Position numbers and translations under genes: made by a program. Positions 26,707 through 62,492 of a stretch of DNA of 64,000 nt are shown here, piece after piece (the first letter of the stretch is position 1; each line of letters begins with the position of its first letter). The notes under the pieces were generated by a model, which was not told where the DNA came from, searched no databases, and saw nothing but the letters and a program-made list of their open reading frames with translations. The stretch is from a plasmid. The stretch lies in the sequence record NZ_CP128206.1; one strand, given 5' to 3'.

Positions 26707-26788
26707 AAGGAGGCAAAGTTAGTAAGGTCGTTGAAGTTTTGAAACCGTTACATACAAAACATTTCAACAAAAACAGTAAGTTTTAGAG

Positions 26789-27616: not shown

Positions 27617-27646
27617 TTTGATTGGTATCGTTGGCCTTCAGGCTCG

Positions 27647-29140: not shown

Positions 29141-29251
29141 GTTCCGCGTCCTTGCAATACTGTGTTTACATACAGTCTATCGCTTAGCGGAAAGTTCTTT
29201 TACCCTCAGCCGAAATGCCTGCCGTTGCTAGACATTGCCAGCCAGTGCCCG

Positions 29252-29443: not shown

Positions 29444-29463
29444 GGCGCGTTCTGTCTCAAGGT

Positions 29464-32400
29464 GGGGTTCTAGGGATTTTCCCCTCTAAAAAGACATAAT
29501 CCTCTGTAGACCACACCAATAAATGGCTGCGGAGGTGGTTTACTTTCAGCTTGGAGCCTAATCATCCACTATCGGCCTTGTTATTTCGCCAATATTGGGC
29601 AATTTCCCAGTATTAGTGAAGTTATACGTTCCGCTTAAGTTGATATTTTGCCACGCAACGGGCGAAACAGCACGAGTGATACCCGCTTTCTCTTCATCTC
29701 CTCTCGCTTCAAAGTGTCCCAGAAGATGACTCAGTATCGCGGAGTTGAAGTAGATGATCGCGTTGGCAAGCAATCTTGCGCATTCATTCCAGATAGCGAT
29801 TTCAGACTCGTTTTTGCCACGGAACTGATCACCATTCACCGACGCAATGGCTCGTCTAAGGAAGTGCCATGCTTCTCCCCGGTTCAGGGCACGTTGCACA
29901 TACTGCCGCAAACTGGCATCGTCGATGTAGTCAAGTAAATATTGCGCTTTAACCAGTCGATTATACTCCGTCAGAGCCTGTAATATTGGGTGTCCAGAAG
30001 GGTAACCAGACAACTTTCTTACCAGCATTGCTTGTGTCGTCCGCTTTGTCTGAAGTGACAGAACAATACGCCTGATATCTTGCCATCCCGTTGTAATAAC
30101 ATTCGTTCTGATAGGCTTCTTTAGCGCCAGTATGGTGCTGCCTTGTTCACTTTCAGTCACATCAAACAGATCATTGATGACACTACTGAACTGCGCGTAT
30201 CGCGGTGCAAAACTGTAACCGCATAGATCCAGTAAGGCGAAGTTAACATGATTGACACCGTGTGTATCTGTCGAGAGTACGTCAGGTTTGATTTCACTGC
30301 TGTTGGATTGTAACAGGTCATAAATATAGTGTGATTCGTGCTCGTTGGAACCGATGATCCGAGCATTGAGGGCGCTGTGGTTGGCCACCAGTGTCATGGC
30401 CGTGATCCCTTTGTTGGTGCCGAAATACTTAGAGGAGTACCGGGTTTTAAAGGTTTCCAGATGGGTTTCGAATTTCTGACCATCCGCACTGGCATGCAGC
30501 TGGTCCTCCTGAATATGGTAGTGGCGGAAGATGGGTAGCGCTGCAACCGCATTATTGATCACGTCGCTGGCGTCATGCAGCGTTTCAGGCCGGATATAGT
30601 TGGCCTGCACCGTACTCAGGTGTTCATAGCTTCGATCGGAGATCTGCGCCATGCCATACACACCACGGTGAGTGGCGTTGGCAATCAGAATGGCCAGTAA
30701 ATCATCCTGATGAGTGAACCCTTGTTTTTGTATCGGAAGTACATGAGTCAGACATTTCATGAACCCGGTTTCGCGCTCTACATACCGCAGTACATCCGCG
30801 ATACCGACCGGTTGCATTCGCTTAAAAAAGGGATTGTTGACCAGAGATGTAGCGCTTTTGGTCGGCAGACGCCAGCGGGTACCGGTACGATTTTTCATGA
30901 TCACATTTCGATTGTCTCCCTCATCAATATGGAGAGCAACGTCTTTGAGTGCACTTTCCAGCCGGTGTTGTTTCTCCTGTAACAATAACTCTGCGGGCTG
31001 TTTTAGTCTGTCCAGTGTTGATGAGGCCAGCAAGGTATCCTGCGATGTCTGGGGATCAGGTCGTCTTCCAGTGCGCGGTATTTGGTAACATTTGGCAAAT
31101 AAATGCGTCCATTCAGTCGTGAGGTTAACTGCCGGTAGAGCAGCCATTCGTAACGTTGCGGGTTAACGTTATCCTGTTTAACCAACCATGGGAGGTGCTT
31201 TTTCGGGATGAGCGACGTATCCATCGTCTTCAGTGGTCCACCGAATGCGATTTCCGTCTGCATCTGTTGAAGTTGGGCGACGACGGCTTCTGAGCCTTTA
31301 CCGGCCTCACATTCAAGGCACAAGAACACCTGCCTTAACAGTTGCTCCAGGAGATTGCATTGTTCATCGTAATGTTGCCACTGGTACTCTTCCACGGTCC
31401 GTTTCTGTTTTTTCAGGTAAAGGCAGAGGGTCTGGATATCCCTGTCATTCATGACCTTCAATGCCTGTTGTCTGACTACTGAGAAGGGCTGATTGTCATC
31501 AATATTCTCGTCAACAAACAGGTGAAGTAGCTCTGCCGCTTTCGTGACATTGTCCGCAGCTGACTGCCAGGACAGGAACACTGCTTGTTGTGCAAAGGCG
31601 TTGGCGGCTTCCTGTTGTTTTCGGATATGGTAAACAAACCCATCCGTCAGGCGCTCCAGTGCAAGTTGCATGCGCTCTGTCAGATGACACAGTAACCACA
31701 GGTGCTGCTGTGAGCGTTTGAAGCGCCGCACTTTACTGCCGTAGTAATCAATAAGGCCGCTGAAGTGTTGTCGATTTTTTAGCGACAGATTGAGCCTGTC
31801 CACAACGTCATTTATTTGCGTGTGCCATGGTGCTAACCGGTGGTAAATGGCGAGCTCTTTTTTAAGCTCAGGCACGGTCAGACTTTTGGCACCACCCCTG
31901 AGATGGCTCAGACTCAGCCCGTCGTCTTTAGTAGTGATTATGTTGTCCAGAAAGACGTTAAGTTCATTACTGGTAAGTTGATTCAGTTGGAGCGTCAGGT
32001 CTTTTCTGACCTGTTGCATTGTGCGGCTTATCAGTCTTTGAAGCACGGAGTACTTAGGAATGGCAATGTTATGGCTGGCAAGGTATTCAATGGCCGCATC
32101 AAAGAGGTGTCGAGGCTCCAGCCAGGCATGACCAATGTAAACCAGGTGGTGGCACAGAGCATTGAGGTGCTGTTTTTCATTCCACTTATTGTAATTTAGT
32201 AGACGCAGTATCCTTGAGTAAATACGGTCACGCTGCATTTTACTGACACTGAAAGGCCTGATCCCTTTACCTCTTTGAATTTGGGAGGCAATAAACTGCA
32301 TGTCGATACTGATATCACGGAAACTCGGAGCAATGATCACTGGCTTAGATTTAAAATAGCCCAGAAGCGCCACGAAATAACAACGATGTTTAGTAAGCCT

Positions 32401-49703: not shown

Positions 49704-52700
49704 TTATTGGCTGCGACTCCACGCATCCTCATACGCATCGCGGCGAACTTCGTCAGCATCGATATTTTCCATACGCTCTCGATTGGCCTCTAGGACATTA
49801 TTTCTGTCTGTTCCGCCTTGCTGAGTGTTCAAATTGGACCCTTTGCCCGTGAGGGAATCAATATTCACATTCACCATGTCGGTGTAATTCCCCGTACTGA
49901 TGAGTATGCCAATCCATTCATCCAGATTCACTTTATCCCAATCGACTTTATCCAAATCTTGAATGCCGACACCTGTGCAGTTCGGTTTTTTCGCGGTTCC
50001 CCAATTTAAATTCATCTGTGACTGAGCATAAATTTGCTCCATCATGATACGAGATAATGGAGAATCAAATACGCAGTAAGACTGGCGTTTTTCAATACAG
50101 GCACCAAGCACCTCTGTCTTACAATAGGAGCCAATTTTATGCGTTGATAACAGCTCTCGTTTCATCGCTAAATCCAGCTCTTCCTCTTCGCATTCGTAGA
50201 TAACATTGACCAGCAAATTAAACACGACATACGCCAGATATGCGTAATACACATACATCAGGGCTTGTCCGGCTGCGGCCATTTCTGCAGAAGCAGCGAG
50301 CGCAGTTCCTCCACTTTCAATAGCAACTTCTTGGAAAAACATCTGTGCCACCTCTGGACCAAAGGTGTCTATCAAAAACTGGTTGGTGTATTGCATCATT
50401 TGTTGTGCCACTGCGCTCATGAGGCCGTCTTTAGCACCGTTTTTCCCCATTTGCGCCACAATATCCGCCGGTGATATAAATTCACCTTGTACCGCCGACC
50501 AAGCAGATTGAGCCGTGGCACTTCCCCACGTTGATGCGGTTTCCCACACACCAGGATAGTTTTCCAACCCCATGACCTGCCCCGTTAGCGCATCCATCTG
50601 AATCATTTTGGTCGTGAGCGAAATGTAATCAGCAAGCGTGACCGCTACAGGGGATTTACAGCAATTCTGCATCCCCCCCACCGCAATTTTGCATTCGGAC
50701 GCAGTACCTTTGAAGAGTTCGCACGTAACGTTGGTATCTCCCCCGCTACTGGTTGTGACCGACGAGGTGGACATGGTACTCATTGACATCGGCTGAGCAG
50801 TAGAACTTGCTGACGCAAGGCCCATGAGCTGCTGTCTGCCCACTGTCGTCAACGCAATGTTCTTCTGTTGTTCTTCAGCCATAGAAAGGAATTGCTCGGC
50901 TACGTACTGTTGCATCGTTTCTTGCGTCAGTTTGGCTTCCTCTGACCCCTGCAACTCGCTGCTTGCGTTCGCTTTGGGAATTAACGTATCCAGCATGTGC
51001 TCGAACGGCGAAAGAGCCATTGCGACGATTTGTTGGGTTTGAGTCTGAGTCAATTCTACTTCGACACTGTTCAACTCGAACTGTGCGCGAGCATCGGCCA
51101 GCGGCGATGGACCTTTTGACGTACAACGGCCTTCGGCTTCGTTCCAGATAGGATATTGGCTAGGGCATCCGATTTGTGCCGGTTCTTCTCTGCGACATGA
51201 ATCTGTTTTCGGGTCATAAAATGTCCCTTCTGCAGAACATGTCCAGACAGGTGCAGATGACGAGGAACTGACGCATTTATTATTAGCTTTGTCTAAAGTG
51301 TATCCAGCTCCGCAAGATGCTTGTTGGTTGACGCTTATATTTGTACATATCTCATAACTGTATAGAGGTGACTCATGATCTTGAAAACAATAACCATTAA
51401 CTTTTTTACCACTATTTTCAAATCTAGGAGTCGCACCAGTATTGATATATTCATTACTGGCAGAATAATAAGAAACGTTGGTTGTACCACCGCAGTTATT
51501 ACCGTTATATCTAGCTAAATACCACTTGGCTCTGAGTTTTCCTCTCCAGTAATTTCCTTTTAAATGTCGAGCATCAGTTTTCTCGTAGCAAACGTTAAGA
51601 ATGGTATCATACAAACAGAGTCCATTATGATCCCAACTTTCACCACCCAGAAAATTCGATGTATTGTGATATGCAGACGAGTCATTATCCCAAAAACAAC
51701 CAGCTTGCTGCCCTTGACACATGCCATTGATCGGTTGAATGCCATTTGGACACGAGGGAACATTAAATACAATTGCCTCACACATACCAGTGTTCGAATT
51801 GTATGTTTCATTACTACCATTACATTCCGGCGTAGCAGGTACTTCTAACAAGCAGACATCATCATCCACACTCCACGGATCGTTGCCTTCTACCAAGGGA
51901 ACACCATCAGGACACGTTGGTGTCGGCGGTATTTCACAATACCCCGTCTTGGGATTGAGCGTGTGATCAGGACTTGGGCAACCACTCGGTATGACTGGTG
52001 ATTCTGCATTGGTACAGACCTCATAAAAGGTATCAGTCGCCAGTTTTTTCTTTGCCTCACCACATGTATAAGTCACCCCATTTTTCTTCACGGGTATGCA
52101 GGTAGGAACGCTGGCATCATCCACCACCACTTGATTTCCCACCAGCACTTGAATGCCATTGCGCGAGCTCGCGGCATAAAAATCGTTGTCAGAATAGGTA
52201 CAGCCTGTTGGTTTCAAACATTGGTTAGTTTGTTTGTTGTAAACGAACCCGTCAGCACAACTTGGAACGGGAATGTATTGGTCCGGCGGCGCATCTGCAT
52301 CGTATGGGGATTCGGGAATGCCTTGGCAGGTCATGTCAGCTTTTGCGTATTTCAGCATTTCCAGATAGGCATTCACTTTGCCAAAATCTTCATTCGCGCC
52401 ATCACGCGCAGGGCTGTAACAATTCTCGCCAACACACTGAAGTTTGCCGTCACAGCGCAATACCTGCTCTTCTTTCGGCTGTCCCGTTGAAGCCGTGAAG
52501 CCACAATCGTAGGTGTCCTCTTGGACATAACAGTGGCCGGAGCTGCCTTCGGCCCCTTCCACACACTCACTCTTGATATAAGAACACGTAGGGTTCTCTT
52601 CGTATTTTTTACACTGATTGCGATCTACTGTGTCATTATCAAAACAGCGCTCTACCCCATTGAGATCCTTTGAGCAAAATTGGCCTTCGTTAAACCCACA

Positions 52701-54104
52701 GTTGGAAGTCACTTCCACTTTTCGACAAAACGGACTGATGCCTAAACTAGCAAATGGGTTCGATTTGAAATTAGACTCACAGACTTTCACCCCGTTCATC
52801 ACCGTACAACCGGCTGCATCAAGGCTTGGCATGTCGGTACACTGAAACGAGCCGGTACAGTAACCGTCATCGATCTGTTTTTTTACTTGGAAAGCTTTGT
52901 CGATGTTTTCTTGCGTTGTCCAATTGTCACCGTACACGAGATCGTTCATGTTGTAGTACACCAACAAAGAGGAATAGCCTTCCCCTTCCCCCGCTACAGA
53001 GGTGCGAGTTTTAAACGTTATCTCACCATATTCAGGCACACTGGTGAATGAACTGGTGACGTTAATGTTAGGTCGGGTGTCCCAGGAAGTGCTTAACTCA
53101 CATTTCGTCCCGACTTCGGGCGGAAATTCACCGTTCGGGCCGTTGTAGATTTTCACCCCGTTCAAATACACTTGGTGATAATCATCGAACTTCGAGCGAT
53201 CCAGAACGGCATAAGTAATTTTATCCGGCTTCAACACTTCAACGGACATGCTCTCTTCATAAATCGTACACCAGCCTGGCCAGTAATTGTTGCCTACTGT
53301 GCCGATCCAAACCTGTGTGCAGCCATTTCCGCAAGAAACAAGGTTCACCGGACCGCTTTTATGTCTCAAAATGCCGACTTTGTATTCGTGGCTGATGGTA
53401 AATGTCTCTTCGACAACCGGTAGTTTTTCGCACGTTTCGTATTTCGGCACATGGTAATCCTTGCCTGACGAAATGAGCTCAGTCGTGAGTGTGCAGTTGG
53501 CAAAGTCTTTGGTAATGTCGGTGAGGTTGTCGAGTACCTGATCGGTGTTCTTCCACATCGGATCGTTGCTTAAATCCGGCTTTTGAGTAGCAAAAGACCT
53601 CTTCAGTAGATGATAAGCTCGTTCACCGCTTGAATCGGCGGTTTCGAGTGTCTTTTGTTCGTATTTATCTTTCGCTAACTGGCCTTGGATAAGGGTTTTG
53701 GAATCACTGCCATAGGTGTCGGTATCAGCGGGGATGTAATCATTGTCGCGCTGACCCGTGAGCTCCTGTTTCGTCATAATGGCTTTGCCATTGACCATCA
53801 GCGAACCATCTGACGAAAAGGTTGGATTAGAGTGTGCGTTTTTGACAGGTTGTTTAACCTGTGTTTTTTGCACGTTTGCATTGGGTTGTTTCGCCAAAAC
53901 CTTAAAGGTGAAGCGAATCAAGCAGAACGCAAGATAGGCAACCAACGAAACCGTTGCCAGTAGGATAAATGCTGCCACCATCCGAGCTGGATTCTCTGCT
54001 TGGTAAGCAACAAAGGCACCAATAAAACACAAAGCAAAAACCGTGAAGTTTTTGAATGATGTTTTTGGTAGAAGTGTTGATAGGGTTTGAGTTGAAGTGT
54101 TCAT
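49704..54104 (-). CDS. Giant cysteine-rich TraN-like surface protein (mating-pair-stabilisation family C-terminal domain) with an N-terminal two-helix membrane anchor
   Basis: 1466 aa with many Cys pairs. C-terminal block QNCCKSP...SYCKTEVLGACIEKRQSYCVFDSPLSRIMMEQIYAQSQMNLNWGTAKKPNCTGVG...IDWDKVNLDEWIG resembles the conserved TraN C-terminus. GGAGA SD precedes ATG 54104. Confidence 0.55.
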   Translation of the reverse strand: MNTSTQTLSTLLPKTSFKNFTVFALCFIGAFVAYQAENPARMVAAFILLATVSLVAYLAFCLIRFTFKVLAKQPNANVQKTQVKQPVKNAHSNPTFSSDGSLMVNGKAIMTKQELTGQRDNDYIPADTDTYGSDSKTLIQGQLAKDKYEQKTLETADSSGERAYHLLKRSFATQKPDLSNDPMWKNTDQVLDNLTDITKDFANCTLTTELISSGKDYHVPKYETCEKLPVVEETFTISHEYKVGILRHKSGPVNLVSCGNGCTQVWIGTVGNNYWPGWCTIYEESMSVEVLKPDKITYAVLDRSKFDDYHQVYLNGVKIYNGPNGEFPPEVGTKCELSTSWDTRPNINVTSSFTSVPEYGEITFKTRTSVAGEGEGYSSLLVYYNMNDLVYGDNWTTQENIDKAFQVKKQIDDGYCTGSFQCTDMPSLDAAGCTVMNGVKVCESNFKSNPFASLGISPFCRKVEVTSNCGFNEGQFCSKDLNGVERCFDNDTVDRNQCKKYEENPTCSYIKSECVEGAEGSSGHCYVQEDTYDCGFTASTGQPKEEQVLRCDGKLQCVGENCYSPARDGANEDFGKVNAYLEMLKYAKADMTCQGIPESPYDADAPPDQYIPVPSCADGFVYNKQTNQCLKPTGCTYSDNDFYAASSRNGIQVLVGNQVVVDDASVPTCIPVKKNGVTYTCGEAKKKLATDTFYEVCTNAESPVIPSGCPSPDHTLNPKTGYCEIPPTPTCPDGVPLVEGNDPWSVDDDVCLLEVPATPECNGSNETYNSNTGMCEAIVFNVPSCPNGIQPINGMCQGQQAGCFWDNDSSAYHNTSNFLGGESWDHNGLCLYDTILNVCYEKTDARHLKGNYWRGKLRAKWYLARYNGNNCGGTTNVSYYSASNEYINTGATPRFENSGKKVNGYCFQDHESPLYSYEICTNISVNQQASCGAGYTLDKANNKCVSSSSSAPVWTCSAEGTFYDPKTDSCRREEPAQIGCPSQYPIWNEAEGRCTSKGPSPLADARAQFELNSVEVELTQTQTQQIVAMALSPFEHMLDTLIPKANASSELQGSEEAKLTQETMQQYVAEQFLSMAEEQQKNIALTTVGRQQLMGLASASSTAQPMSMSTMSTSSVTTSSGGDTNVTCELFKGTASECKIAVGGMQNCCKSPVAVTLADYISLTTKMIQMDALTGQVMGLENYPGVWETASTWGSATAQSAWSAVQGEFISPADIVAQMGKNGAKDGLMSAVAQQMMQYTNQFLIDTFGPEVAQMFFQEVAIESGGTALAASAEMAAAGQALMYVYYAYLAYVVFNLLVNVIYECEEEELDLAMKRELLSTHKIGSYCKTEVLGACIEKRQSYCVFDSPLSRIMMEQIYAQSQMNLNWGTAKKPNCTGVGIQDLDKVDWDKVNLDEWIGILISTGNYTDMVNVNIDSLTGKGSNLNTQQGGTDRNNVLEANRERMENIDADEVRRDAYEDAWSRSQ

Positions 54105-54588: not shown

Positions 54589-54732
54589 TACCTCATTTGT
54601 TATTTTGAATATTTAATAACAGAGATAAACGTATGGCCCGTAAGGGATAGTTTATCCCCGTTGGGCTGAACACATCGTCAAAGTAAAAACTTATCGGATG
54701 GTAAAGAGTGACCGTTATTGGTCAATTGAAAA

Positions 54733-55786
54733 GGCCTTGTTGCTTAAATCAATGGAACTAAATCAGGAAGCTACGATCTGATCGGCTACACCCATCAATC
54801 GTCGTAGCCTCATGCCTAAACCTCGTTACAAAACAACTAACTGGAAGCAGTACAATAAATCCTTAATCAACCGTGGTTCTCTGGCCTTTTGGATTGATGA
54901 GGAAGCGATAGCTGAGTGGAAGCAAAACAAACAAGGCAAGCGTGGTAGACCTCGCCGATTCAGCGACTTAGCCATTACTACCGCACTGATGGTGAAACGC
55001 GTTTTCTCTATGCCCTTGAGAGCGCTGCAAGGTTTTCTAGACTCCGTATTTAAGCTGGCTAACATCCCGCTTGTTTGCCCGCACTACACCTGTATAAGCC
55101 GCCGAGCTAAGGAAGTTGAAGTTTCATTTAAAACCAAAACCAGAGGAGCAATACAACATCTGGCCATTGATGCCACTGGCCTCAAGGTTTATGGCGAAGG
55201 TGAATGGAAGGTCAAGAAGCATGGAACTGATGGGAAGCGAAGAGTCTGGCGTAAGCTGCATATCGCGGTAGATACAAGCACCCACGAAATAGTCGCAGCA
55301 GAGCTGAGCTTATCTAACGTAACTGATGCCGAAGTGCTCCCCAACTTACTCAAGCAAACACGTCGTAAAATCATTGAGATATCAGGCGATGGGGCTTATG
55401 ACACAAGGAATTGCCATGATGCCATACGGATCAAGCGAGCTGTTCCGCTCATCCCGCCAAGAGAAGGAGCAGCCTTCTGGGAACAAGGGCATCCTCGTAA
55501 CTTAGCGGTAGGTTGCCAGAAGCTCTACGGCTCCAACAAGAAGTGGAAAAAGCGGTATGGCTATCATAAGCGCTCTCTATCAGAGACCGCAATGTACCGA
55601 GTAAAACAGCTGCTAGGTGGGAAATTAAGCCTGAGGAACTACAACGCTCAAGTTGGCGAGACTTACGCTATGATTAAAGCCCTGAATAAGCTTACAGGGC
55701 TTGGCATGCCTGAAACACAGTATATCGGTTAAGAATTAAGCACAATGGGGCAGGCATGGCTTATCTATGAATTAAGCAACAAAGCC
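54733..55786 (+). mobile_element. IS5-family (IS903 group) insertion sequence, copy 2, inverted relative to copy 1
   Basis: IRs GGCCTTGTTGCTTAAATC at 54733 and ...GCAACAAAGCC at 55786. Transposase 54812-55732. Confidence 0.85.
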
Positions 55787-56569
55787 TTTAATAATATCAA
55801 TTTCGCTGAACCATTCCTGTGTGCTCCAATCGCTCGTATTTTGACTAGTTCGAATCATCACCGTTTGACCAATCATCGTTTGAGCTTTGTTCAAAACTTC
55901 TAATGCAGACTCTTTGTATTTAGTAATACTCATTTTTCTGGTATCGCCTGTACTATTTTTGATGATAATAATTGAACCTACTTTCGATGCTGATACCAGT
56001 GTTCCAAAGTCATTCCACACAAAATTGTTCATTTCTAAAACCTTATAAACGGTTGTACGACTGCATCCTAACTCTTTACTAATAGCATGCTTGTTCATTC
56101 CCTGCTCAGCAAACGCTTCTATGCGTTCATGTAGTTGCTTATCAGGAAATCGTCCGATGTGCCTGCCTTCAGCTTTAGCTCTCTCCCTGCCCTCGTTACA
56201 GCGCTGTAAGATACGTTTTCTTTCCATTTCTGCGAAAGCGGAAATCGTTGTGTAAATGACCCGTCCCACATCACTATTGATGTCTAAATCCCCGAGGTCA
56301 TGAAACACCAGTCCAGCCCCCTTATCTGAAAGCTCATCGGCAATCTTAAGAGCATCTATCGTATTACGTGCAATGCGGTCCACTTTAGTTACATGGATAA
56401 CATCACCTTCACGGGCAAACTCGATCAAGCGAGAAAGCTCTTCACGATCAGCCGACTTTCCGCTGGCTTTTTCCTGGAATACTTTCTCACATCCTATCGA
56501 TTGAAGTTGCTCAAGCTGAACATTCAGAGTTTGGTCGTCAGAACTAACACGGGCATAGCCGATTTTCAT
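55772..56569 (-). CDS. Serine recombinase (resolvase/invertase family) with an 80-aa C-terminal extension
   Basis: MKIGYARVSSDDQ catalytic Ser motif, HTH around residues 150-185, then an extra domain. Confidence 0.75.
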   Translation of the reverse strand: MKIGYARVSSDDQTLNVQLEQLQSIGCEKVFQEKASGKSADREELSRLIEFAREGDVIHVTKVDRIARNTIDALKIADELSDKGAGLVFHDLGDLDINSDVGRVIYTTISAFAEMERKRILQRCNEGRERAKAEGRHIGRFPDKQLHERIEAFAEQGMNKHAISKELGCSRTTVYKVLEMNNFVWNDFGTLVSASKVGSIIIIKNSTGDTRKMSITKYKESALEVLNKAQTMIGQTVMIRTSQNTSDWSTQEWFSEIDIIKGFVA

Positions 56570-56769
56570 GATAGAGGCCTTAAAGTGAACAATAAGATAA
56601 GCAGTAATTAGTGTACATGTTCACTAATAATAATTAAGACTAACTGAACAGTTTTGTGATGGGTGCTTCATTATGTCCATAAAGGTACACCTTTATGGAC
56701 ATTTAGTCATAACATTCGAATAGTTTAAATCGTTCGATTCGTTTATAATTAACCCAAAGGAGAGTAACT

Positions 56770-57015
56770 ATGCAATCATTAACAGCAAATACAGCAAAAA
56801 CCAAATTTGGCGATTTACTGATGAAGGTTCAGCGTGAACCCGTGCAAATCAGTAAAAATGGCTCACCGGTTGCGGTGATGATGTCCTGTGAAGAATATGA
56901 GCAATTAGAAGCACTCAAGATGATGCTGGTTAAATCTCGTTTTGAACAGGCAGAAATTGATATCAGGAATGGCGATCTGGTCGATGGTGATGAATTTATG
57001 AAATCTCTGGCTTAA
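56770..57015 (+). CDS. Type II antitoxin, Phd/YefM family
   Basis: 81 aa. TKFGDLLMKVQREPVQISKNGSPVAVMMSCEEYEQL is typical Phd/YefM. Confidence 0.75.
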   Translation: MQSLTANTAKTKFGDLLMKVQREPVQISKNGSPVAVMMSCEEYEQLEALKMMLVKSRFEQAEIDIRNGDLVDGDEFMKSLA

Positions 57016-57029
57016 GGGTTAATGTTTTC

Positions 57030-57332
57030 ATGAGCAGTTATAAGCTTTCACCTTTAGCCCAGTCTGATCTCACTGATATTCGTCGTTACACCATAGAACA
57101 TTGGGGCAGTACTCAATGGTCCGTCTATTTTAATGAATTACAGGAATCGATGTCATTGCTGGCAAGTAACGAACTGATCGGAATTCAGATCCCGGAAATG
57201 GGAGAGCGATACTACCGTTTTCCTCTGAAGCACCATGTGATTTATTACATCACTCAGGAAGACCATATCGTTATCGTCGCTGTGCTGGGTAAGCATATGT
57301 CTCCTGCAAAACATTTTGCGTCTATTTCTTAA
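57030..57332 (+). CDS. Type II toxin, ParE/RelE superfamily
   Basis: 100 aa, 14 bp downstream of the antitoxin. YRFPLKHHVIYYITQEDHIVIVAVLGKHM is the typical ParE/RelE C-terminus. Confidence 0.7.
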   Translation: MSSYKLSPLAQSDLTDIRRYTIEHWGSTQWSVYFNELQESMSLLASNELIGIQIPEMGERYYRFPLKHHVIYYITQEDHIVIVAVLGKHMSPAKHFASIS

Positions 57333-57931
57333 TTTTTTAATTTCCGGCGAATAATATAATCACGCAATGTGCTCGGTGCTTCATCTATCAACTTTGCCGT
57401 AGGCCGGATACCTAGCCCCATTTTGAGGTATTTTTCGATTTGATCACGTTTAGCGTCCAGCTTTAATTTATTTGCCGGCCCTTTAGGTCTGCCAAGAATT
57501 ACCCCATCCTTTTTGCGTGCCGCCAGTGCTTCTTTGGTCCGCATCGAGATAAACTCGCGTTCAATCTCAGCGGCGAGCCCAAGCACTGTTGCGGTAATTC
57601 TGGCCTGCATAGAGCCGTCCAGCTGCATGTTCTGTTTGGCTATGTACACATCGATTTTTTTCTCCATGCATACTTCCAACACTTCAAGTACCTGTAAGGT
57701 AGAACGGGCGATACGGCTCACTTCGGCAAAAATGAGTTTATCTCCGGATGTCATGCCCTCTATCAGAGCTCCGAGTTTGCGCTCGTGCCATTTTTTCTTG
57801 CCTGTGACGATGTCTTCAACAAAGCAAAGACCGGATAAACCAACTTTGTTGGCGTATTCATAGATACCGTGCTTTTGGTTAGCAACATCCTGGCTGTCGG
57901 AAGATACTCTAAGGTAGGCGTAGTGGGTCAT
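57329..57931 (-). CDS. Serine recombinase / resolvase, 200 aa
   Basis: MTHYAYLRVSSDSQ, with a C-terminal HTH. Confidence 0.75.
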   Translation of the reverse strand: MTHYAYLRVSSDSQDVANQKHGIYEYANKVGLSGLCFVEDIVTGKKKWHERKLGALIEGMTSGDKLIFAEVSRIARSTLQVLEVLEVCMEKKIDVYIAKQNMQLDGSMQARITATVLGLAAEIEREFISMRTKEALAARKKDGVILGRPKGPANKLKLDAKRDQIEKYLKMGLGIRPTAKLIDEAPSTLRDYIIRRKLKN

Positions 57932-58081
57932 GGCAATCTCCTTTTGTTCAGGAGTGTTATAACAATCCCAGACATAAAAAAGGTGTGCGATTACCTGGAT
58001 TGTGACCTTTAAAAAATAAAAAGAAGAAAGAAATGTAATTGTTATTGTTGTGGTTAACTGTGTAAATCTTTGATTTTCCAG

Positions 58082-58090
58082 TTATCCACA
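58082..58090 (+). promoter_or_regulatory. Consensus DnaA box TTATCCACA in an AT-rich origin region
   Basis: Exact 9-mer. Followed by AT-rich CTATAGATCT-type repeats at 58090-58200. Confidence 0.6.
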
Positions 58091-58206
58091 TCAGCTATAA
58101 AGATCTATAGATAACTATTAAAACTATACAGACTATAAATCTATAAGATCTATAGTTTATGTAACGTACTGATTATTAATAATAAAAATAGCATTTATGA
58201 TCCTAT

Positions 58207-58360
58207 TTTAGGTATTTAGATAACACTATTCAGGTTGAAATGATCTTATTTCAGGTGTGGTTGATCACTTATCAGGTGAATAGATGACACATTTCAGGTG
58301 TTAATGATCGTATGTCAGGTGTTTAGATGACAGTTTTTAGGTGTCCGGAAGTCAGATCAG
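58207..58360 (+). repeat. Seven about-22-bp direct iterons (core YAGGTG...AGATGA), the plasmid oriV
   Basis: TAGGTATTTAGATAACACT, CAGGTTGAAATGATCTTAT, CAGGTGTGGTTGATCACTT, CAGGTGAATAGATGACACA, CAGGTGTTAATGATCGTAT, CAGGTGTTTAGATGACAGT and TAGGTGTCCGGAAGTCAGA, at 21-22 bp phasing. Extra inverted copies at 58390-58480. Confidence 0.75.
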
Positions 58361-58540
58361 GCACTTACTGAGCATGGCGGATGTATTACAGCGATTACTA
58401 CACCTGATTTCTGTCTTTGATACCGCTTAAGTATCACATTTTAGGTGGATCTCGTTCTTTACACCTAAAATGTGTCATACATCACGTGGATATACCTTAT
58501 TTATGTCCGTTGTGGGAGATAAGCACCTAAATTATGTCTG

Positions 58541-59635
58541 CTAGTACTCTGGGTTGTTACTGATTTCTGACAGGGTTTCTATCTTATCCAGCAGCGAATC
58601 AACTTCATTCTGAGTGTTTTCTTCTTGTTCTGCTTGTTGCTTAAGGTGACGTTTCGATAAGCTCTCTTCCACTTTGATGGCGTGTTCTTCTTTCCCTATG
58701 TAACGATAAGCAATCGCCAGGGACTCGAGCTCTGCTTTAGAAAGGCGAATGTTGTTTTGCAGCCTTTTAAGCTCAAGTTCCCGAATTGTTTTCAGTGCGT
58801 CATGCTGATTGAGTTCGTCTACAGTGCCGAGCTTTATCCAGCGGAACAGGAACTTGATCCCAGTGATGGTCCGGCCTTTCTTGATCACTTCAAATCCTTT
58901 TTCTCCGCTATCGCTTTCGAGAAATAGAAGTTCTTTTCGGATCTGTGGATGCTCAGAGAGTTCCTTAATGCTTTCACGAATACAGCGCTTCATGAATACG
59001 CTGTTGTTCTTAAAAGAAGTCTTATCCTTTTTAAGCTTCCCTGCTTCATTAAGGAGGCCAAAGACGCCTTTCAGCTCGTCGAGCTTTTGCTGGTGCATTT
59101 CAAAGCCTTTGTCTTTGAAGCGGCTCAGCAGCTCATAAAGGCGCTTGGAGTATTCTTTTTTTACATCAAAGAAATTACGGGTGTTGATCAAGGCAAATCC
59201 CTGATTGTACTCGATGTATTCAGATTTAAGCATGTCGTTAGGAACCATGGTTAATACACCATTTTTATAGGCAATATGCTTAAACAGAGGACGATAGTCG
59301 AACTCTGTATCTCCTTTTCTGGATTCGATTTTGATACCGATTTTACGGCTGGCCAGACGATTAGCTACCGGGCTTAAGTTACTGCCAATGTGTTTGGATT
59401 CAACGCCTAACCATTCTGATAACTGGTGTGAAGTGAATTCGTAATGTGGAGTGTTGGTATCCCAGTCAGCCGCTTTCATATGAGCCACCATCAGCGCAAA
59501 CATATCCGCTTCCCTGGCTGAAAGATCCTGACGGCTGAATACCAGCTGATGACCTTTCTTGATGTGCTTTGGCAGGTTGTCACTGACGACAGGATAGTAA
59601 TATTGTTCTTCGCTCATGGTTTCCATCCAAGACAT
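58541..59635 (-). CDS. rep: Plasmid replication initiator, Rep_3-type (iteron-binding RepA/RepB-like)
   Basis: 364 aa. Adjacent to the iterons and DnaA box. Winged-helix-like central region, coiled-coil C-terminus. Confidence 0.6.
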   Translation of the reverse strand: MSWMETMSEEQYYYPVVSDNLPKHIKKGHQLVFSRQDLSAREADMFALMVAHMKAADWDTNTPHYEFTSHQLSEWLGVESKHIGSNLSPVANRLASRKIGIKIESRKGDTEFDYRPLFKHIAYKNGVLTMVPNDMLKSEYIEYNQGFALINTRNFFDVKKEYSKRLYELLSRFKDKGFEMHQQKLDELKGVFGLLNEAGKLKKDKTSFKNNSVFMKRCIRESIKELSEHPQIRKELLFLESDSGEKGFEVIKKGRTITGIKFLFRWIKLGTVDELNQHDALKTIRELELKRLQNNIRLSKAELESLAIAYRYIGKEEHAIKVEESLSKRHLKQQAEQEENTQNEVDSLLDKIETLSEISNNPEY

Positions 59636-60558
59636 AACTTAGGTTAATTATTACATAATATAGGTGAGCTGAACAAATTAATACCTGGATTGTGTCACAT
59701 AAAATTTGACAGATATATTTCTCTTTTGAGGCGGCGCAAAAACAGGCGTGTAATTGTTTTGATCCTCGCTGTTTAAAGATCAGATCTTCGATCTCAGCAT
59801 GGATCTAAAAGAGATGCATAAATGAAAGTTTTTCCCCCTCAATTATGTCCGGTTCTTACATGCCGGTCGTTACGGGAAAAGACGCCAGCGACAGTAAATA
59901 AATGGGCGGCCATTGTGCTTGTACAATCAAAGAAAATGTAAGTGACAACGTGATGTCGTCTTGACGGGTGACGCCTGAGTTTTGGTTTTAACTTACTCAG
60001 GATAAACAGGTTCTACGGGTGATGATGACCCTGCCTTGCTGTTAGGTTGATTAATTTTTAACACAAACCAGTAAAGGAAACGGAAGAGAGTAACGCCTCG
60101 ACCTGCGATGGAGTGGCGAACCATGTGACTAAGCCCAGCCCTAACTAATCTGTCACAAATTTACGCACCTGATAAAACATCACGAAGAAAAACCAACATC
60201 TTAAATATTCCTGGATGGGAGAAGACAGGGTTGATGCTAACGCTTTTATGTGGCATCACCCAGCCCCGTCATAGACTTCCTATGTGCGAAAAATACGGTC
60301 GTTAATTTTAATCATCTACCCTAATCATCATCACTGTCACTTATCATCCTATTGTTTACCCCTTTCTTTCGATTAAAAACCCGCGACGCTGTGCGAGATT
60401 AACCTGTGTCCCCTGCCCTCCCGGATTGAGACGAGAGCTGGCTCCACTTTGTTCAATATACAACACCATTACATTTTTATTTCGGGTGAGTCGCAGGGAA
60501 TTTGCTCACGCTTTTTTTATTTCTCTTACCTTGTATGTTGTAGCGGTCAGGAAGAAGA

Positions 60559-61283
60559 GTATGCGATTTTTAAAACTTAGAACCGATCATAAACGCCAGC
60601 GAAAAGACGGGTCTCGTTATGTGACACCTTTAATCGTAGATACCCCTCGTCGCTTTGCGCCAAGCCGGGATCGAAAAGAAACCAGCTTACGCCGAACCCA
60701 GTGTCAGCTGATAACCGGTGCGCATGATTCGGGTAAAAGCCGGTGGCTCACCCGCCTGCGTGACAGCCGGCACGAGATCTGGGGCAGTAAACCACAACCG
60801 GTTTTGCTGGAAGGCCTGATGCCGCTTTCCAGCTGGGTGGAAGTGAAAGGGATTGAACAATGGTACGAAAATTGTCACGAAGAAGACGCCTGTTTTACTC
60901 CCTGGAGCAAGCTCAACCTGCAACTCAAAGCGGATTTACTGGCTGATTACCTGGTTGAGACTCAATCGCTGCTGTTCATCGACGATGCTCACAAGCTGAC
61001 AGGACGTAAAGCACAGATAGCGCGTAAATGTCTGCTGTCAGCAAAAACCTGGCTGATGGCCTGCAGTGAAGAAGGACGCTTGCCTCCTTCTATTCGCCCT
61101 ATTGTTGAAAGGCGTGAGCCTCAACGTATCAATCTGGAAAGTGACGTGAGTTACGACACAACGAAAGCCCTGATCTGGTTCATGGTTGCCTTATGTGTCG
61201 TTGCCGGCGCCTGGGAAGCGGGGGCTGTGATTGGGGGGCTTCAGATGTTGGGCAATGGACGGAGGTCTACCCGTGCAGATTAG
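60559..61283 (+). CDS. P-loop NTPase, hypothetical (Walker A GAHDSGKS, Walker B LLFIDDAH)
   Basis: Start chosen at MRFLKLRTDH. The track ORF begins earlier at 60426. Confidence 0.45.
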
Positions 61284-61293
61284 AGCACCCTGG

Positions 61294-62022
61294 ATGTTAC
61301 TTGGGATACTGGCTGTTAGCCAAAGCTATGCGAATGACTGGGGGATCGATTCTCCCTGGAAGGAACCTGTCGCACCTCCTCCGGAAATAAAACCATTCGT
61401 GTTACCTACTCTCACAGGAGAAGCCCCACATTACAACACCCCTGCTCCGGCTTTAAAACCTGCCCCTAAAATCGACCCTGATGTTATTTTTCAAACCGTT
61501 CTGAATTGCTACCCGGAGAAGAGTAAATTTAAGCTGGACTTAAGTCTGGTCGCGGGAATGAAAACCAATCTTGACGAGTACAACAGTGATGACTGGCCGG
61601 AAATCTCCGAGCACTATGTTGGGATTGTCGGCAAGATGCCGCTCTATTCCACGACAGAACAGTCACGGGAACGCCAGTGGGAGTATCAGCGTCGTACCTC
61701 AACCGCAACTTCGGTGGCGGCGTTTGCTCAGGCCCTTGCTGACCGTAATTATGCGTATCGTCTGATGGGACTGTATTTATCTCTCGAGGCTCGCTCACAG
61801 CAGCGTGTGGCTCAGGGGGTGGCAAGCGTTAATGAGCAAGTCGCATTACTTGAAAAGGTCGCGGGCTCTCATCGCAATGTTCTGGCGCATGAAGCCAAAA
61901 TAGTAGAGCACCGGTTAGCACTGGTTGCACTCTGTGAAGACAGCTACAGTAAGAGGGTTAATCAGTACTTGCTGGACTTAGCGTTTCTTCCTCCTCATCA
62001 GGCGGAACATCAAAGCAAATGA
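61294..62022 (+). CDS. Secreted hypothetical protein with a Pro-rich N-terminal region
   Basis: Signal peptide MLLGILAVSQSYA. Overlaps the next gene start. Confidence 0.45.
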   Translation: MLLGILAVSQSYANDWGIDSPWKEPVAPPPEIKPFVLPTLTGEAPHYNTPAPALKPAPKIDPDVIFQTVLNCYPEKSKFKLDLSLVAGMKTNLDEYNSDDWPEISEHYVGIVGKMPLYSTTEQSRERQWEYQRRTSTATSVAAFAQALADRNYAYRLMGLYLSLEARSQQRVAQGVASVNEQVALLEKVAGSHRNVLAHEAKIVEHRLALVALCEDSYSKRVNQYLLDLAFLPPHQAEHQSK

Positions 62023-62492
62023 AGTGGCTCAATCATGGTCTCATCGCTGGCGCTGTTTGTGCCGTTGTCTCGCCACCTCATGTACCCATATGCATTGCAG
62101 GAGCCACCGCTCCAGACTGGATTGAATACGTTGTTAAAGTGTTTGGTCACAATATCAAGCATCGTGGCACTACCCATATTTTTACCCACTGGCTTATCGT
62201 TGCCCTCGTCTTCACATTTGTCTGGGACTATCAGGGGGTAGGAATGGCGTTCGCATGGGGTGGTGTCAGCCATATCCTGACCGATGCCATGACCGTTTCC
62301 GGTGTTCCTTTTTCTCCCTACAGTGACAGACGTTTCCATCTGTTTGGTGGACGGTTCCGGACCGGTGACCCGGTGGAATATGCCATCTCTGCTGGCGTTG
62401 TGATTGTCTGTATCGCTTTGTCTCATATCTCCGGAGGGCAAGGTTTGCTCCATTTTTTTATGACTGGGCCGGTATGTATGAGCGCGGATTAA
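62019..62492 (+). CDS. Membrane-bound metal-dependent hydrolase, YdjM/DUF457 family
   Basis: 157 aa. His-rich TM protein (NIKHRGTTHIFTHW) typical of the YdjM family. Confidence 0.6.
   Translation: MKWLNHGLIAGAVCAVVSPPHVPICIAGATAPDWIEYVVKVFGHNIKHRGTTHIFTHWLIVALVFTFVWDYQGVGMAFAWGGVSHILTDAMTVSGVPFSPYSDRRFHLFGGRFRTGDPVEYAISAGVVIVCIALSHISGGQGLLHFFMTGPVCMSAD

What the first reader, a model, noticed from the sequence alone, without database searches (positions are those of the whole stretch)
55772..59740. Iteron-type plasmid replicon with the origin downstream of rep, plus a resolvase-TA-resolvase stability module
A Rep_3-like initiator gene (59635 to 58541) is followed on its 3' side by inverted iteron copies, then seven phased 22-bp iterons. 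Next come an AT-rich block with CTATAGATCT palindromes and a perfect DnaA box, and a resolvase gene. A Phd/ParE toxin-antitoxin pair and a second, C-terminally extended serine recombinase lie next to these. The 12-mer ACCTGGATTGTG occurs on both sides of rep (57990 and 59684). The window therefore contains a complete plasmid maintenance core, implying that the contig is a plasmid or an integrated plasmid. The position of the iterons downstream of rep rather than upstream is atypical for Rep_3 replicons.
Basis: partly seen in the sequence, partly recalled or inferred. Interest (0 to 1): 0.6.

Follow-up and report, generated by a model that had tools for sequence, protein, structure and literature searches.

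The report
Vibrio plasmid replicon, origin after rep
This is the replication and stability core of a Vibrio furnissii plasmid: an ordinary iteron-controlled origin with its Rep initiator gene, whose only unusual trait (the initiator gene points towards its origin) is the normal layout for a large family of marine plasmids.

Summary
Beyond its 3' end lie inverted iteron-like sites, seven phased 21/22-bp iterons (58197-58347), an AT-rich block of 9-bp CTATAAGAT repeats, and the window's only perfect DnaA box (58082). A serine recombinase, Phd/ParE and a second, extended recombinase follow. Region 57900-59800 is 100% identical to complete circular Vibrio furnissii/fluvialis plasmids, so the contig is a plasmid.

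New points:
One copy is in the rep promoter operator, the other at the far edge of the origin.
- rep is bracketed by two equivalent palindromic operators (AGGT-N17-ACCT).
- Iterons 1, 3, 4 and 6 carry in-phase GATC (Dam) sites, conserved across the family.
- About 29 of 45 related loci keep the origin downstream. One subclade has the homologous origin upstream, implying one flip of rep.
- ParAB lie outside the window.
- An IS5-family element replaces the last codons of the extended recombinase.

A downstream oriV is already proven for the Rep_3 replicon of SGI1/IncN2-N3. Verdict: a new member of a known kind, of low to moderate interest.

The parts
54733..55786 (+). IS5-family (IS903-like) insertion sequence; transposase ORF 54812-55732. 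Context only: it abuts and clips the 3' end of the extended recombinase gene.
   Evidence: Pfam DDE_Tnp_1_5 and DDE_Tnp_1. 22-nt terminal inverted repeats at 54730-54751 / 55768-55789. No matching 9-bp flanking duplication. A second, inverted copy lies at 4221-5222.
55772..56569 (-). Serine recombinase, 265 aa: resolvase catalytic domain, an HTH_7 domain, and an extra C-terminal segment of about 80 aa.
   Evidence: Pfam Resolvase 8.6e-38 and HTH_7 1.7e-6. Ordinary homologues stop at about 180 aa. The extension is conserved (71% identity, 260-aa reading) in the Photobacterium gaetbulicola plasmid KC687076. The final GFVA-stop is read from the IS end.
56673..56702 (.). Perfect palindrome ATGTCCATAAAGGT-AC-ACCTTTATGGACAT, about 70 bp upstream of phd. 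Candidate operator of the TA operon (inferred).
   Evidence: I5, 14-nt arms, 100% complementary.
56770..57015 (+). Phd/YefM-family antitoxin, 81 aa.
   Evidence: Pfam PhdYeFM_antitox 2.1e-12; annotated as such in RefSeq.
57030..57332 (+). ParE/RelE-family toxin, 100 aa.
   Evidence: Pfam ParE_toxin 1.1e-15; annotated as such in RefSeq.
57329..57931 (-). Small serine recombinase, 200 aa, next to the origin. Probable multimer resolvase (function inferred from context).
   Evidence: Pfam Resolvase 7.7e-29. The best NCBIfam hit is the Mpi invertase family at 181.8 bits, below its cut-off of 272. It occupies the same position in pFORC54.
57942..57977 (.). Imperfect palindrome TGTTCAGGAGTG-TTATAA-CAATCCCAGACA between the recombinase start and the origin. 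Candidate crossover (res) site (inferred).
   Evidence: I5; I3. The resemblance to the Tn3/gamma-delta res site I is from memory and was not tested.
57988..58009 (-).
   Evidence: PWM score 13. The site is conserved at this position in L002, L003, L006 and L009 and in L004.
58049..58090 (.). Host-factor block: DnaA-box-like TTAACCACA (58049-58057, minus strand), an IHF-consensus match AATCAAAGATTTA (58063-58075, minus strand), and the perfect DnaA box TTATCCACA (58082-58090, plus strand).
   Evidence: The block GTGGnTAACTGTGTAAATCTTTGATTTTCCAGTTATCCACA is almost invariant across relatives. The DnaA box is invariant even in the clade with the origin upstream.
58095..58197 (.). AT-rich presumed DNA-unwinding element: 6.6 copies of a 9-bp CTATAAGAT unit (58095-58154) with two AGATCTATAG palindromes (GATC at 58102 and 58147).
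   Evidence: GC 20-23%; TRF. The CTATAAAGATCTAT...CTATAG motifs align between clades.
58197..58347 (+). Seven tandem iterons with a 21/22-bp period and consensus ATGATCACATTTCAGGTGTTTA. Iterons 1, 3, 4 and 6 contain GATC.
   Evidence: The same count and the same GATC pattern occur in pFORC54, pVIBHAR and the FORC_022 plasmid.
58397..58418 (-). Single inverted iteron-like site.
   Evidence: PWM 13.5.
58430..58479 (.). Operator-like palindrome O2: head-to-head iteron-like sites (CACATTTTAGGTG ... CACCTAAAATGTG; AGGT-N17-ACCT) between the iterons and the rep stop codon.
   Evidence: (I16, 13-nt arms, 100% complementary). The geometry is the same in L002.
58489..58541 (-). Two weaker inverted iteron-like sites; the second overlaps the rep stop codon.
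   Evidence: PWM 9.2 and 12.4; pattern match.
58541..59617 (-). rep: Rep_3-family initiator of 358 aa (the ORF is open from 59635). It has WH1 and WH2 domains plus a C-terminal helical extension of about 90 aa that ends in an invariant Tyr.
   Evidence: Pfam. AlphaFold model with mean pLDDT 77.5. Foldseek finds RepE at 9e-10 and pi at 2.6e-7, with TM 0.63-0.70 relative to the target. 153 homologues; invariant Y358.
59645..59699 (.). Operator-like palindrome O1 in the rep promoter region (ACATAATATAGGTG-N-ACCTGGATTGTGT), with the same AGGT-N17-ACCT geometry as O2. Its right half is the second 12-mer (59683-59694).
   Evidence: In relative L016 this site is a perfect palindrome with 14-nt arms, ACACAATCTAGGTG/CACCTAGATTGTGT.
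59761..59805 (.). Cluster of five GATC sites 125-170 bp upstream of rep. Candidate Dam/SeqA-sensitive control region (inferred).
   Evidence: It is the densest 60-bp GATC window in all 64 kb, Poisson P 4e-6. GATC clusters occur at the same place in L002 and L003.
60162..60183 (-). Conserved isolated iteron-like site GTGATGTTTTATCAGGTG, about 545 bp upstream of rep.
   Evidence: PWM 14.4; present at the equivalent position in L002 and L003.

Best explanation
This is the theta-type, iteron-controlled basic replicon of a Vibrio plasmid, flanked by accessory stability genes.

Initiation (inferred by analogy with RepE, pi and pPS10 RepA). Rep monomers bind the seven in-phase iterons. Host DnaA binds the box at 58082, and perhaps the imperfect box at 58049. 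IHF bends the DNA at 58063-58075. The adjacent AT-rich 9-bp-repeat block (58095-58197) melts and the host helicase is loaded.

Control (inferred). Rep dimers bind the palindromic operator O1 in the rep promoter and repress rep. The equivalent palindrome O2 and the outlying single sites titrate Rep or pair origins (handcuffing). The in-phase GATC sites in iterons 1, 3, 4 and 6, in the AT-rich block, and in the cluster upstream of rep couple initiation and rep expression to Dam methylation and SeqA sequestration.

Layout (shown). The origin has the textbook internal order: DnaA box, then AT-rich block, then iterons. Only the rep gene is inverted, so it is transcribed towards the iterons.

Stability (inferred). 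The 200-aa serine recombinase next to the origin probably resolves multimers. Phd/ParE gives post-segregational killing. Partition is provided elsewhere on the plasmid.
For: - Rep identity: Rep3_N and Rep3_C hits. The AlphaFold model matches RepE, pi and the pPS10 RepA WH1 domain.
- Origin anatomy and its non-random nature.
- It is a real plasmid replicon. The region is 100% identical to circular V. furnissii plasmids of 71-76 kb. In pVFBJ07-1 this is the only rep annotated. It is also the only rep seen in the roughly 9 kb of the 32.6-kb pFORC54 that was examined.
- A family member (59% identity) is needed for maintenance of pMEGA: antisense silencing of its rep cured the plasmid (PMC11858219; identity).
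- Conservation across about 29 related loci: the same order rep-stop, inverted sites, 5-7 GATC-bearing iterons of 21/22 bp, AT-rich block, DnaA box.
- Co-divergence. The iteron core changes with Rep clade (TTTCAGGTG, GCCATAAATATGATCA, CACCAGTTTTGTGATCA, AAGTTTGCTT). The DnaA box and the CTATA/GATCTAT repeats stay fixed.
- The same origin module sits upstream of rep, in the canonical position, in a monophyletic subclade. The module is therefore the origin, not an accessory array.
- Precedent: oriV lies immediately downstream of a Rep_3 repA in SGI1, where it was shown by cloning. Its cis elements are conserved downstream of repA in IncN2/N3 plasmids.
Against: - Nothing here is experimental for this plasmid. 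No initiation site, Rep binding or autonomous replication has been shown.
- The rep promoter could not be placed. The sigma-70 consensus scan found no more sites than in shuffles (8 against 7.1).
- No intrinsic terminator separates rep from the iterons. How read-through into the origin is handled is unknown.
- A single perfect DnaA box is not significant on its own.
- The roles of O2, the outlying sites, the GATC sites, the recombinase and the candidate res site are inferences from position and analogy.
Confidence: 0.85

Rival explanations
1. The downstream repeat array is a copy-control or incompatibility locus, like P1 incA or F incC. The true origin lies upstream of rep, in the 790-bp intergenic region that holds the GATC cluster (59636-60425).
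For: - Iteron-like sites occur on both sides of rep.
- The upstream region holds the densest GATC cluster in the window, and GATC clusters are typical of origins.
- In the textbook Rep_3 replicons the origin is upstream.
Against: - The upstream region has no DnaA box even at one mismatch and is not AT-rich: GC is 33-48%, against 20% downstream.
- It holds only single or paired Rep sites, not a phased array.
- The downstream block has the full order DnaA box, IHF site, AT-rich block, iterons.
- That block aligns base-for-base with the block occupying the canonical upstream origin position in the sister clade.
Confidence: 0.07
2. The Rep_3 replicon is a silent passenger or remnant, and the plasmid replicates from another replicon elsewhere, for example one linked to its IncA/C-like or pAQU-like backbone remnants.
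For: - The plasmid is mosaic, carrying MobI(A/C), TraN and other IncA/C-like genes.
- A 370-kb V. fluvialis plasmid carries the same replicon as one part of a much larger molecule.
- A non-Rep_3 Vibrionaceae replicon (VBR1) was recognised only recently.
Against: - rep is intact and under conservation.
- It is the only rep annotated in the 71-kb complete relative.
- The same replicon occurs on small 31-33-kb plasmids.
- The PLSDB gene table is incomplete, so a second replicon is not strictly excluded.
Confidence: 0.05
3. Replication is rolling-circle, with Rep acting as a nicking initiator, as speculated in the literature for the related plasmid pMEGA.
For: The pMEGA papers describe their RepB (PF01051) as an RCR initiator.
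Against: - The protein has WH1 and WH2 Rep_3 domains and a RepE/pi fold.
- No other Pfam family is hit.
- It sits beside phased iterons, a DnaA box and an AT-rich block, which is the signature of theta initiation.
- Plasmids of 30-370 kb are not typical RCR replicons (general knowledge).
Confidence: 0.02

Closest known systems
F plasmid RepE/ori2, R6K pi/gamma ori, pPS10 RepA (prototype Rep_3 iteron replicons)
   Same: - Two winged-helix domains; the best structural matches are RepE 9e-10 and pi 2.6e-7.
- Phased iterons of about 22 bp.
- DnaA box and AT-rich block next to the iterons.
- An inverted-repeat operator at the rep promoter.
   Different: - Only 16-19% identity, with no sequence-level hit to any solved structure.
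- rep is inverted, so the origin lies at its 3' end.
- The protein has an extra C-terminal helical segment of about 90 aa.
- GATC sites are built into the iterons.
SGI1 RepA/oriV and the IncN2/N3 plasmid replicons
   Same: A Rep_3-family initiator with a functional oriV (iteron-like repeats, an inverted repeat, DnaA boxes, an AT-rich region) immediately downstream of the rep stop codon, shown by cloning and EMSA (PMC7826253).
   Different: - SGI1 has four GC-rich 16-bp repeats, against seven AT-rich 22-bp iterons here.
- The hosts are enterobacterial.
- Sequence relatedness to this Rep was not tested here.
pMEGA RepB of Pseudoalteromonas haloplanktis TAC125
   Same: - The same Rep family: 59% identity over residues 10-323.
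- Antisense silencing of rep cures the plasmid.
- Related Pseudoalteromonas loci also carry 21-bp GATC-bearing repeats just after the rep stop.
   Different: - Different iteron core (CACCAGTTTTGTGATCA).
- Its authors assumed rolling-circle replication and did not define an origin.
Vibrio cholerae chromosome 2 origin (RctB, 11/12-mers)
   Same: - Initiator sites that each contain GATC, a DnaA box and an IHF site, in a Dam-dependent host (PMC2865523).
- RctB domains 2-3 are a weak structural match to this Rep (5tbf, E 1e-3).
   Different: - RctB is a much larger, four-domain protein.
- Methylation dependence of binding is shown for RctB and is only a hypothesis here.
- Here only 4 of the 7 iterons carry GATC.
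P1 RepA (oriR/incC + incA) and F (ori2 + incC)
   Same: Initiator-binding sites on both sides of rep, consistent with titration or handcuffing control (general knowledge).
   Different: In P1 and F the origin array is on the 5' side of rep and the control array on the 3' side. Here the array with origin features is on the 3' side.

Membership tests
Rep_3 (RepE/pi/RepA-type) iteron replicon | N-terminal WH1 domain (Pfam Rep3_N, PF01051) | tested here: met
   E 3.7e-23, 82.9 bits against a cut-off of 22.4; residues 25-171 cover the whole profile.
Rep_3 (RepE/pi/RepA-type) iteron replicon | Second winged-helix domain WH2 (Pfam Rep3_C, PF21205) | tested here: met
   28.8 bits against a cut-off of 21.1; residues 185-264.
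Rep_3 (RepE/pi/RepA-type) iteron replicon | Three-dimensional fold like the solved initiators | tested here: met
   AlphaFold model with mean pLDDT 77.5. The top 42 Foldseek PDB hits are RepE, pi, the Rep-iteron complex 8aan and pPS10 RepA WH1, with target-normalised TM 0.63-0.72.
Rep_3 (RepE/pi/RepA-type) iteron replicon | Tandem direct repeats (iterons) in helical phase close to rep | tested here: met
   Seven copies with a 21/22-bp period. The pattern is enriched over shuffles and conserved in relatives.
Rep_3 (RepE/pi/RepA-type) iteron replicon | DnaA box and AT-rich unwinding region adjoining the iterons | tested here: met
   TTATCCACA at 58082; GC 20-27%; both conserved.
Rep_3 (RepE/pi/RepA-type) iteron replicon | Inverted half-iteron operator in the rep promoter for autorepression | tested here: inconclusive
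   The palindrome O1 lies 10-65 bp upstream of the start and is conserved, being perfect in L016. The promoter itself could not be located and binding is untested.
Rep_3 (RepE/pi/RepA-type) iteron replicon | Rep-dependent autonomous replication of the rep-plus-ori fragment | not testable with these tools
   Needs cloning. The only indirect support is the curing of pMEGA by silencing a 59%-identical rep.
Rep_3 replicons with downstream oriV (SGI1, IncN2/N3 type) | oriV located just beyond the 3' end of rep | tested here: met
   The iteron array starts 194 bp after the rep stop, with Rep sites filling the gap.
Rep_3 replicons with downstream oriV (SGI1, IncN2/N3 type) | Sequence relatedness of Rep and iterons to SGI1/IncN2-N3 | not tested
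   No SGI1 or IncN2/N3 sequence was compared. The iteron consensus reported there (GGGGGHRATTATGCGY) is unrelated to the one here.
Type II toxin-antitoxin, Phd/YefM-ParE | Adjacent small antitoxin and toxin genes with the two family domains | tested here: met
   PhdYeFM_antitox 2.1e-12 and ParE_toxin 1.1e-15; the genes are 14 bp apart on one strand.
Small serine recombinases (resolvase/invertase) | N-terminal resolvase catalytic domain, with a C-terminal HTH | tested here: met
   Both proteins hit PF00239 (8.6e-38 and 7.7e-29). HTH_7 is detected only in the 265-aa protein.
Mpi-family master DNA invertase (NF009949) | Score above the NCBIfam equivalog cut-off | tested here: not met
   181.8 bits against a cut-off of 272 for the 200-aa recombinase. 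It is similar but not a member.
VBR1 replicon of Vibrionaceae (vrp1AB + oriV) | Two non-Rep_3 genes, vrp1A and vrp1B, plus a 570-bp oriV | tested here: not met
   VBR1 proteins have no similarity to known Rep proteins, whereas this initiator is a clear Rep_3 protein. The V. furnissii plasmids matched here are not mentioned in the paper's main text.

The most novel reading that the evidence does not exclude
This marine Rep_3 family may have a modular, orientation-free rep cassette. rep is bracketed by two equivalent palindromic Rep operators, so recombination between them can flip the gene without loss of autoregulation or origin function. That would explain why one subclade has the homologous origin upstream and all the others have it downstream.

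In addition, the GATC sites are kept in the iterons of every clade even though the Rep-specific core changes. This would make initiator binding or origin sequestration Dam-dependent, as for RctB at Vibrio chromosome 2. The family would then be a plasmid-borne counterpart of that cell-cycle-coupled control.
Probability: 0.25. Interest if true: 0.5.

Novelty: new member of a known kind. Interest (0 to 1): 0.27.

Why it matters
- It gives a base-level map of the origin for a replicon that about 140 sequenced Vibrio, Photobacterium, Pseudoalteromonas and Shewanella plasmids share. These include shrimp-pathogen (AHPND-associated) and fish-pathogen plasmids and, in this window, a floR/tet(A)/aph(6)-Id resistance plasmid.
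- These plasmids are poorly typed. MOB-suite assigns no replicon to the V. furnissii plasmids. A published study of a family member assumed rolling-circle replication.
- A defined rep-ori unit would help plasmid typing, incompatibility prediction, curing strategies and the design of marine shuttle vectors.
- The finding that the same origin works with rep in either orientation is a small but clean example of modular replicon evolution.
- None of this changes how iteron plasmids are understood.

Tried and rejected
- Sequence searches of PDB with the Rep protein and with a 58-sequence profile found no initiator. Only the fold search did.
- The sigma-70 promoter scan and the intrinsic-terminator scan of 57300-60700 gave nothing above shuffles. 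Neither placed the rep promoter or a terminator between rep and the iterons.
- Rfam on 55500-61000 gave only two sub-threshold chance hits, so there is no sign of a known antisense-RNA copy control.
- Literature searches for an experimental description of this family's origin (pVIBHAR, p09022, pVA1, Vibrionaceae Rep_3) found none.
- The VBR1 paper looked promising but describes an unrelated replicon.
- I considered that the Mpi-like recombinase might actively invert rep. I rejected this because every close relative has the same orientation, the flip separates clades about 50% identical in Rep, and the upstream-origin clade has no such recombinase next to the origin in the one locus examined, L040.
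- I considered that the recombinase extension was a read-through artefact caused by the IS. I rejected this because the extension is conserved at 71% identity in another plasmid.
- The Rep matches a PHROG family end to end, which suggested a phage-plasmid link. No phage record encodes it.
- One alignment mixed orientations for three loci. Only its correctly oriented rows (window, L005, L013, L016, L020) were used.

Full report
**1. What is there**

The ORF on the minus strand from 59635 to 58541 encodes a protein with both Rep_3 domains. Rep3_N scores E 3.7e-23, and Rep3_C scores 28.8 bits against a cut-off of 21.1. RefSeq and all homologues start at the third ATG, giving 358 aa (58541-59617).

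Neither the protein nor a 58-sequence profile matches any solved structure by sequence. An AlphaFold model built on that alignment has mean pLDDT 77.5. Its best PDB matches are F-plasmid RepE (E 9e-10), R6K pi (2.6e-7), the Rep-iteron-ssDNA complex 8aan and the pPS10 RepA WH1 domain. TM-scores are 0.63-0.72 relative to the targets, over about 245 columns.

Residues 266-352 form three extra helices. The last residue, Tyr358, is invariant in 58 homologues.

**2. The origin**

On the plus strand, moving away from the rep stop codon, the features are as follows.

| Feature | Coordinates | Source |
|---|---|---|
| Two weak inverted iteron-like sites, the second over the stop codon | 58520-58541, 58489-58510 | |
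| Palindrome O2, two head-to-head sites with 13-nt perfect arms, AGGT-N17-ACCT | 58430-58479 | |
| Single inverted site | 58397-58418 | |
| Seven direct iterons, cores spaced 22/21/21/22/21/22 bp | 58197-58347 | |
| AT-rich block, GC 20-23%, with 6.6 copies of a 9-bp CTATAAGAT unit and two AGATCTATAG palindromes | 58095-58197 | |
| The window's only perfect DnaA box | 58082-58090 | |
| IHF-consensus match | 58063-58075 | |
| One-mismatch DnaA box on the other strand | 58049-58057 | |

TRF scores the iteron array 110 at period 43 and 67 at period 22. A degenerate iteron pattern finds 7 matches in the 64-kb window against 1.2 expected. None of 100 shuffles reaches 7, and six of the matches lie in 58219-58541.

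The internal order of the origin is therefore the textbook one: DnaA box, then AT-rich block, then iterons. What differs is that rep follows the iterons in the opposite orientation.

**3. The 12-mer and the operators**

The reverse complement of ACCTGGATTGTG is CACAATCCAGGT, two bases away from the iteron core CACATTTCAGGT.

The copy at 59683-59694 is the right half of a palindrome O1 (59645-59699). O1 lies just upstream of rep and has exactly the AGGT-N17-ACCT geometry of O2. In relative L016 this site is a perfect palindrome with 14-nt arms, ACACAATCTAGGTG/CACCTAGATTGTGT.

The copy at 57993-58004 marks the far edge of the origin. It is conserved there in L002, L003, L006 and L009 and in L004.

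rep is therefore bracketed by two equivalent operator-like palindromes, and the DnaA/IHF/AT-rich core is bracketed by Rep sites of opposite orientation.

**4. Dam sites**

Iterons 1, 3, 4 and 6 begin with TGATC, while iterons 2, 5 and 7 have GATA or GATG at that position. This pattern is identical in pFORC54, pVIBHAR and a V. parahaemolyticus plasmid.

Six GATC sites lie in 58095-58310 against 0.9 expected (P 3e-4). The four in the iterons are spaced 43, 21 and 43 bp, that is, in helical phase.

Five more GATC sites at 59761-59805, 125-170 bp upstream of rep, form the densest 60-bp GATC window of the whole 64 kb (P 4e-6).

Every clade of the family keeps GATC in its iteron consensus although the rest of the iteron differs. 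In V. cholerae, the RctB sites of chromosome 2 all carry GATC and need methylation for binding (PMC2865523). A similar coupling here is an inference only.

**5. It is a plasmid, and the replicon is widespread**

Region 57900-59800 is 100% identical to three complete circular V. furnissii plasmids (76, 76 and 71 kb) and to a 370-kb V. fluvialis plasmid. The rest of the window is a variant of these that carries a floR/tet(A)/aph(6)-Id resistance island.

In pVFBJ07-1 this is the only rep annotated. ParA/ParB lie about 9 kb beyond rep, outside the window.

The Rep has 153 cluster-level homologues, nearly all 350-380 aa. It also has homologues on 140 PLSDB plasmids of Vibrio, Photobacterium, Shewanella, Pseudoalteromonas, Aliivibrio and Salinivibrio. 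These include pVIBHAR, pPHDD1, pMEGA and AHPND-associated plasmids.

For pMEGA (59% identity), antisense silencing of rep cured the plasmid. Its authors assumed rolling-circle replication (PMC11858219), which the fold and the iterons contradict.

**6. Comparative test of the origin**

I fetched 45 related loci.

In about 29 of them the block downstream of rep has the same layout. It consists of inverted sites, then 3-7 tandem repeats of 21/22 bp containing GATC, then an AT-rich block. In most, a perfect DnaA box lies 290-575 bp after the stop.

The iteron core differs between Rep clades:
- ACACCTAAAAT...GATCA in the window's clade
- GCCATAAATATGATCA
- AGCCAGATAAACGATCA
- CACCAGTTTTGTGATCA

The DnaA box and the CTATA/GATCTAT repeats do not change. 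This is the pattern expected of cognate Rep-iteron pairs combined with fixed host-factor sites.

In seven loci (L038-L043, L048; 49-58% Rep identity) the array lies upstream of rep, in the canonical order DnaA box, AT-rich block, iterons (GATCAnATAAGTTTGCTTTGT), rep. L040, the one locus whose ORFs were listed, has parA and parB after rep.

The origin modules of the two groups align in the same orientation. The invariant stretches are TTATCCACA, CTATAA-GATCTAT and CTATAG. The modules are therefore homologous, and it is rep that is flipped.

In a neighbour-joining tree the upstream group is monophyletic and nested among downstream lineages. This indicates one flip, but the rooting (a 37%-identical outgroup) is weak. 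In the upstream group too, rep is flanked by inverted-repeat pairs, at -47/-37 and at +20 to +45. Recombination between the palindromic operators is therefore a plausible but untested route to the flip.

**7. Mechanism**

The best explanation is standard theta initiation at an iteron origin, with rep transcribed towards the origin. Control would come from autorepression at O1, from titration or handcuffing through O2 and the outlying sites, and probably from Dam/SeqA sequestration.

Shown here:
- The protein family and fold.
- The anatomy of the origin.
- Its conservation and its co-divergence with Rep.
- Its plasmid context.

Inferred: every binding event and every regulatory role.

Rival readings are ranked low:
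- The true origin lies upstream, in 59636-60425. That region lacks a DnaA box and is not AT-rich.
- The replicon is a silent passenger. It is the sole annotated rep in the 71-kb relative, and it occurs on 31-33-kb plasmids.
- Replication is rolling-circle. This conflicts with the fold and the origin type.

**8. The stability module**

Phd (56770-57015) and ParE (57030-57332) are confirmed. A perfect palindrome with 14-nt arms at 56673-56702 is a likely operator for them.

The 200-aa serine recombinase (57329-57931) resembles Mpi-type invertases but scores below that family's cut-off. An imperfect palindrome around TTATAA (57942-57977) between its start and the origin is a candidate crossover site. 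The resemblance to Tn3-type res site I is from memory.

The 265-aa recombinase has a genuine extension of about 80 aa. Ordinary homologues end at about 180 aa, but a 260-aa form with 71% identity across the extension exists in a Photobacterium gaetbulicola plasmid. An IS5-family element (54733-55786) supplies its last four codons and its stop. There is no flanking target duplication, which suggests a rearrangement.

The recombinase-TA-recombinase set recurs next to this replicon in pFORC54, pVIBHAR and others. It is replaced by other cargo in the FORC_022 plasmid, so it is accessory.

**9. Comparison and novelty**

This is a member of the Rep_3 iteron replicons by every testable criterion.

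A downstream oriV is not new for Rep_3. It was demonstrated for SGI1, and its cis elements are conserved downstream of repA in IncN2/N3 plasmids (PMC7826253). A repA with a downstream oriV is also reported for PIME elements, although that preprint's passages do not state the Rep family (bioRxiv 2026.01.12.698999).

I found no paper that defines the origin of this marine family. The sequence itself is already in RefSeq with rep annotated.

The finding is correct but ordinary. The added value is the precise origin map, the reinterpretation of the 12-mer, the family-wide GATC-bearing iterons, and the single flip of rep relative to a conserved origin module.

Noticed in passing
window 59761-59805: Five GATC sites within 45 bp, 125-170 bp upstream of rep, form the densest 60-bp GATC window in the whole 64 kb. 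Smaller GATC clusters sit at the same place in pFORC54 and pVIBHAR. This could be a Dam/SeqA-sensitive control of rep expression.
   Followed up: partly
window 60561-62492 (+), also L002 6557-8533 and L003 7272-8536: A conserved operon diverges from rep. It encodes two proteins with no family hits (240 and 249 aa; only a weak AAA_22 hit when the first is read from an upstream start) and a YdjM-type membrane hydrolase. It travels with this replicon in several plasmids, and its function is unknown. A conserved iteron-like site (60162-60183) lies in the 790-bp spacer between it and rep.
   Followed up: partly
window 58541-58830 (Rep residues 266-358): The Rep has a C-terminal three-helix extension of about 90 aa that is absent from RepE and pi. 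It ends in an invariant tyrosine after a ...PxY-like tail, conserved in all 58 aligned homologues. This may be a docking or dimerisation element.
   Followed up: no
window 54733-55786 and 4221-5222: Two copies of an IS5-family (IS903-like) element lie in inverted orientation (94% identity over 1 kb), 49.5 kb apart. The copy at 54.7 kb has no target-site duplication and clips the recombinase gene. Recombination between the two copies could invert most of the window.
   Followed up: partly
window 12000-31400: The resistance island (floR, tet(A), aph(6)-Id, Tn3-family and ISVsa3-like genes by similarity to pAQU-type Vibrio plasmids) contains several exact direct repeats of at least 300 bp. Their spacings are 2.3, 4.0, 6.6 and 17.5 kb, typical of IS-mediated assembly.
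   Followed up: no
window 49704-54104 (-) and upstream: A 1466-aa TraN homologue, together with MobI(A/C), DUF3150, AAA ATPase and YqaJ-recombinase genes seen in the close relative pVFBJ07-1, look like remnants of an IncA/C- or pAQU-like conjugative backbone. The plasmid is typed as non-mobilizable.
   Followed up: no
L038-L043, L048 (loci from Vibrio coralliilyticus, V. europaeus, V. ouci and others): A sister clade of the Rep family has the homologous origin upstream of rep. Its iterons are GATCAnATAAGTTTGCTTTGT. In L040, the one locus whose ORFs were listed, parA and parB follow rep. In L039 the AT-rich block is an exact six-fold tandem of GATCTATT.
   Followed up: partly
window 58541-59617 (Rep protein): The protein matches PHROG family phrog_16861 end to end (626 bits), yet no record in the 50,697-genome phage collection encodes a homologue. 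The PHROG family probably derives from a misclassified plasmid or prophage-region sequence.
   Followed up: yes
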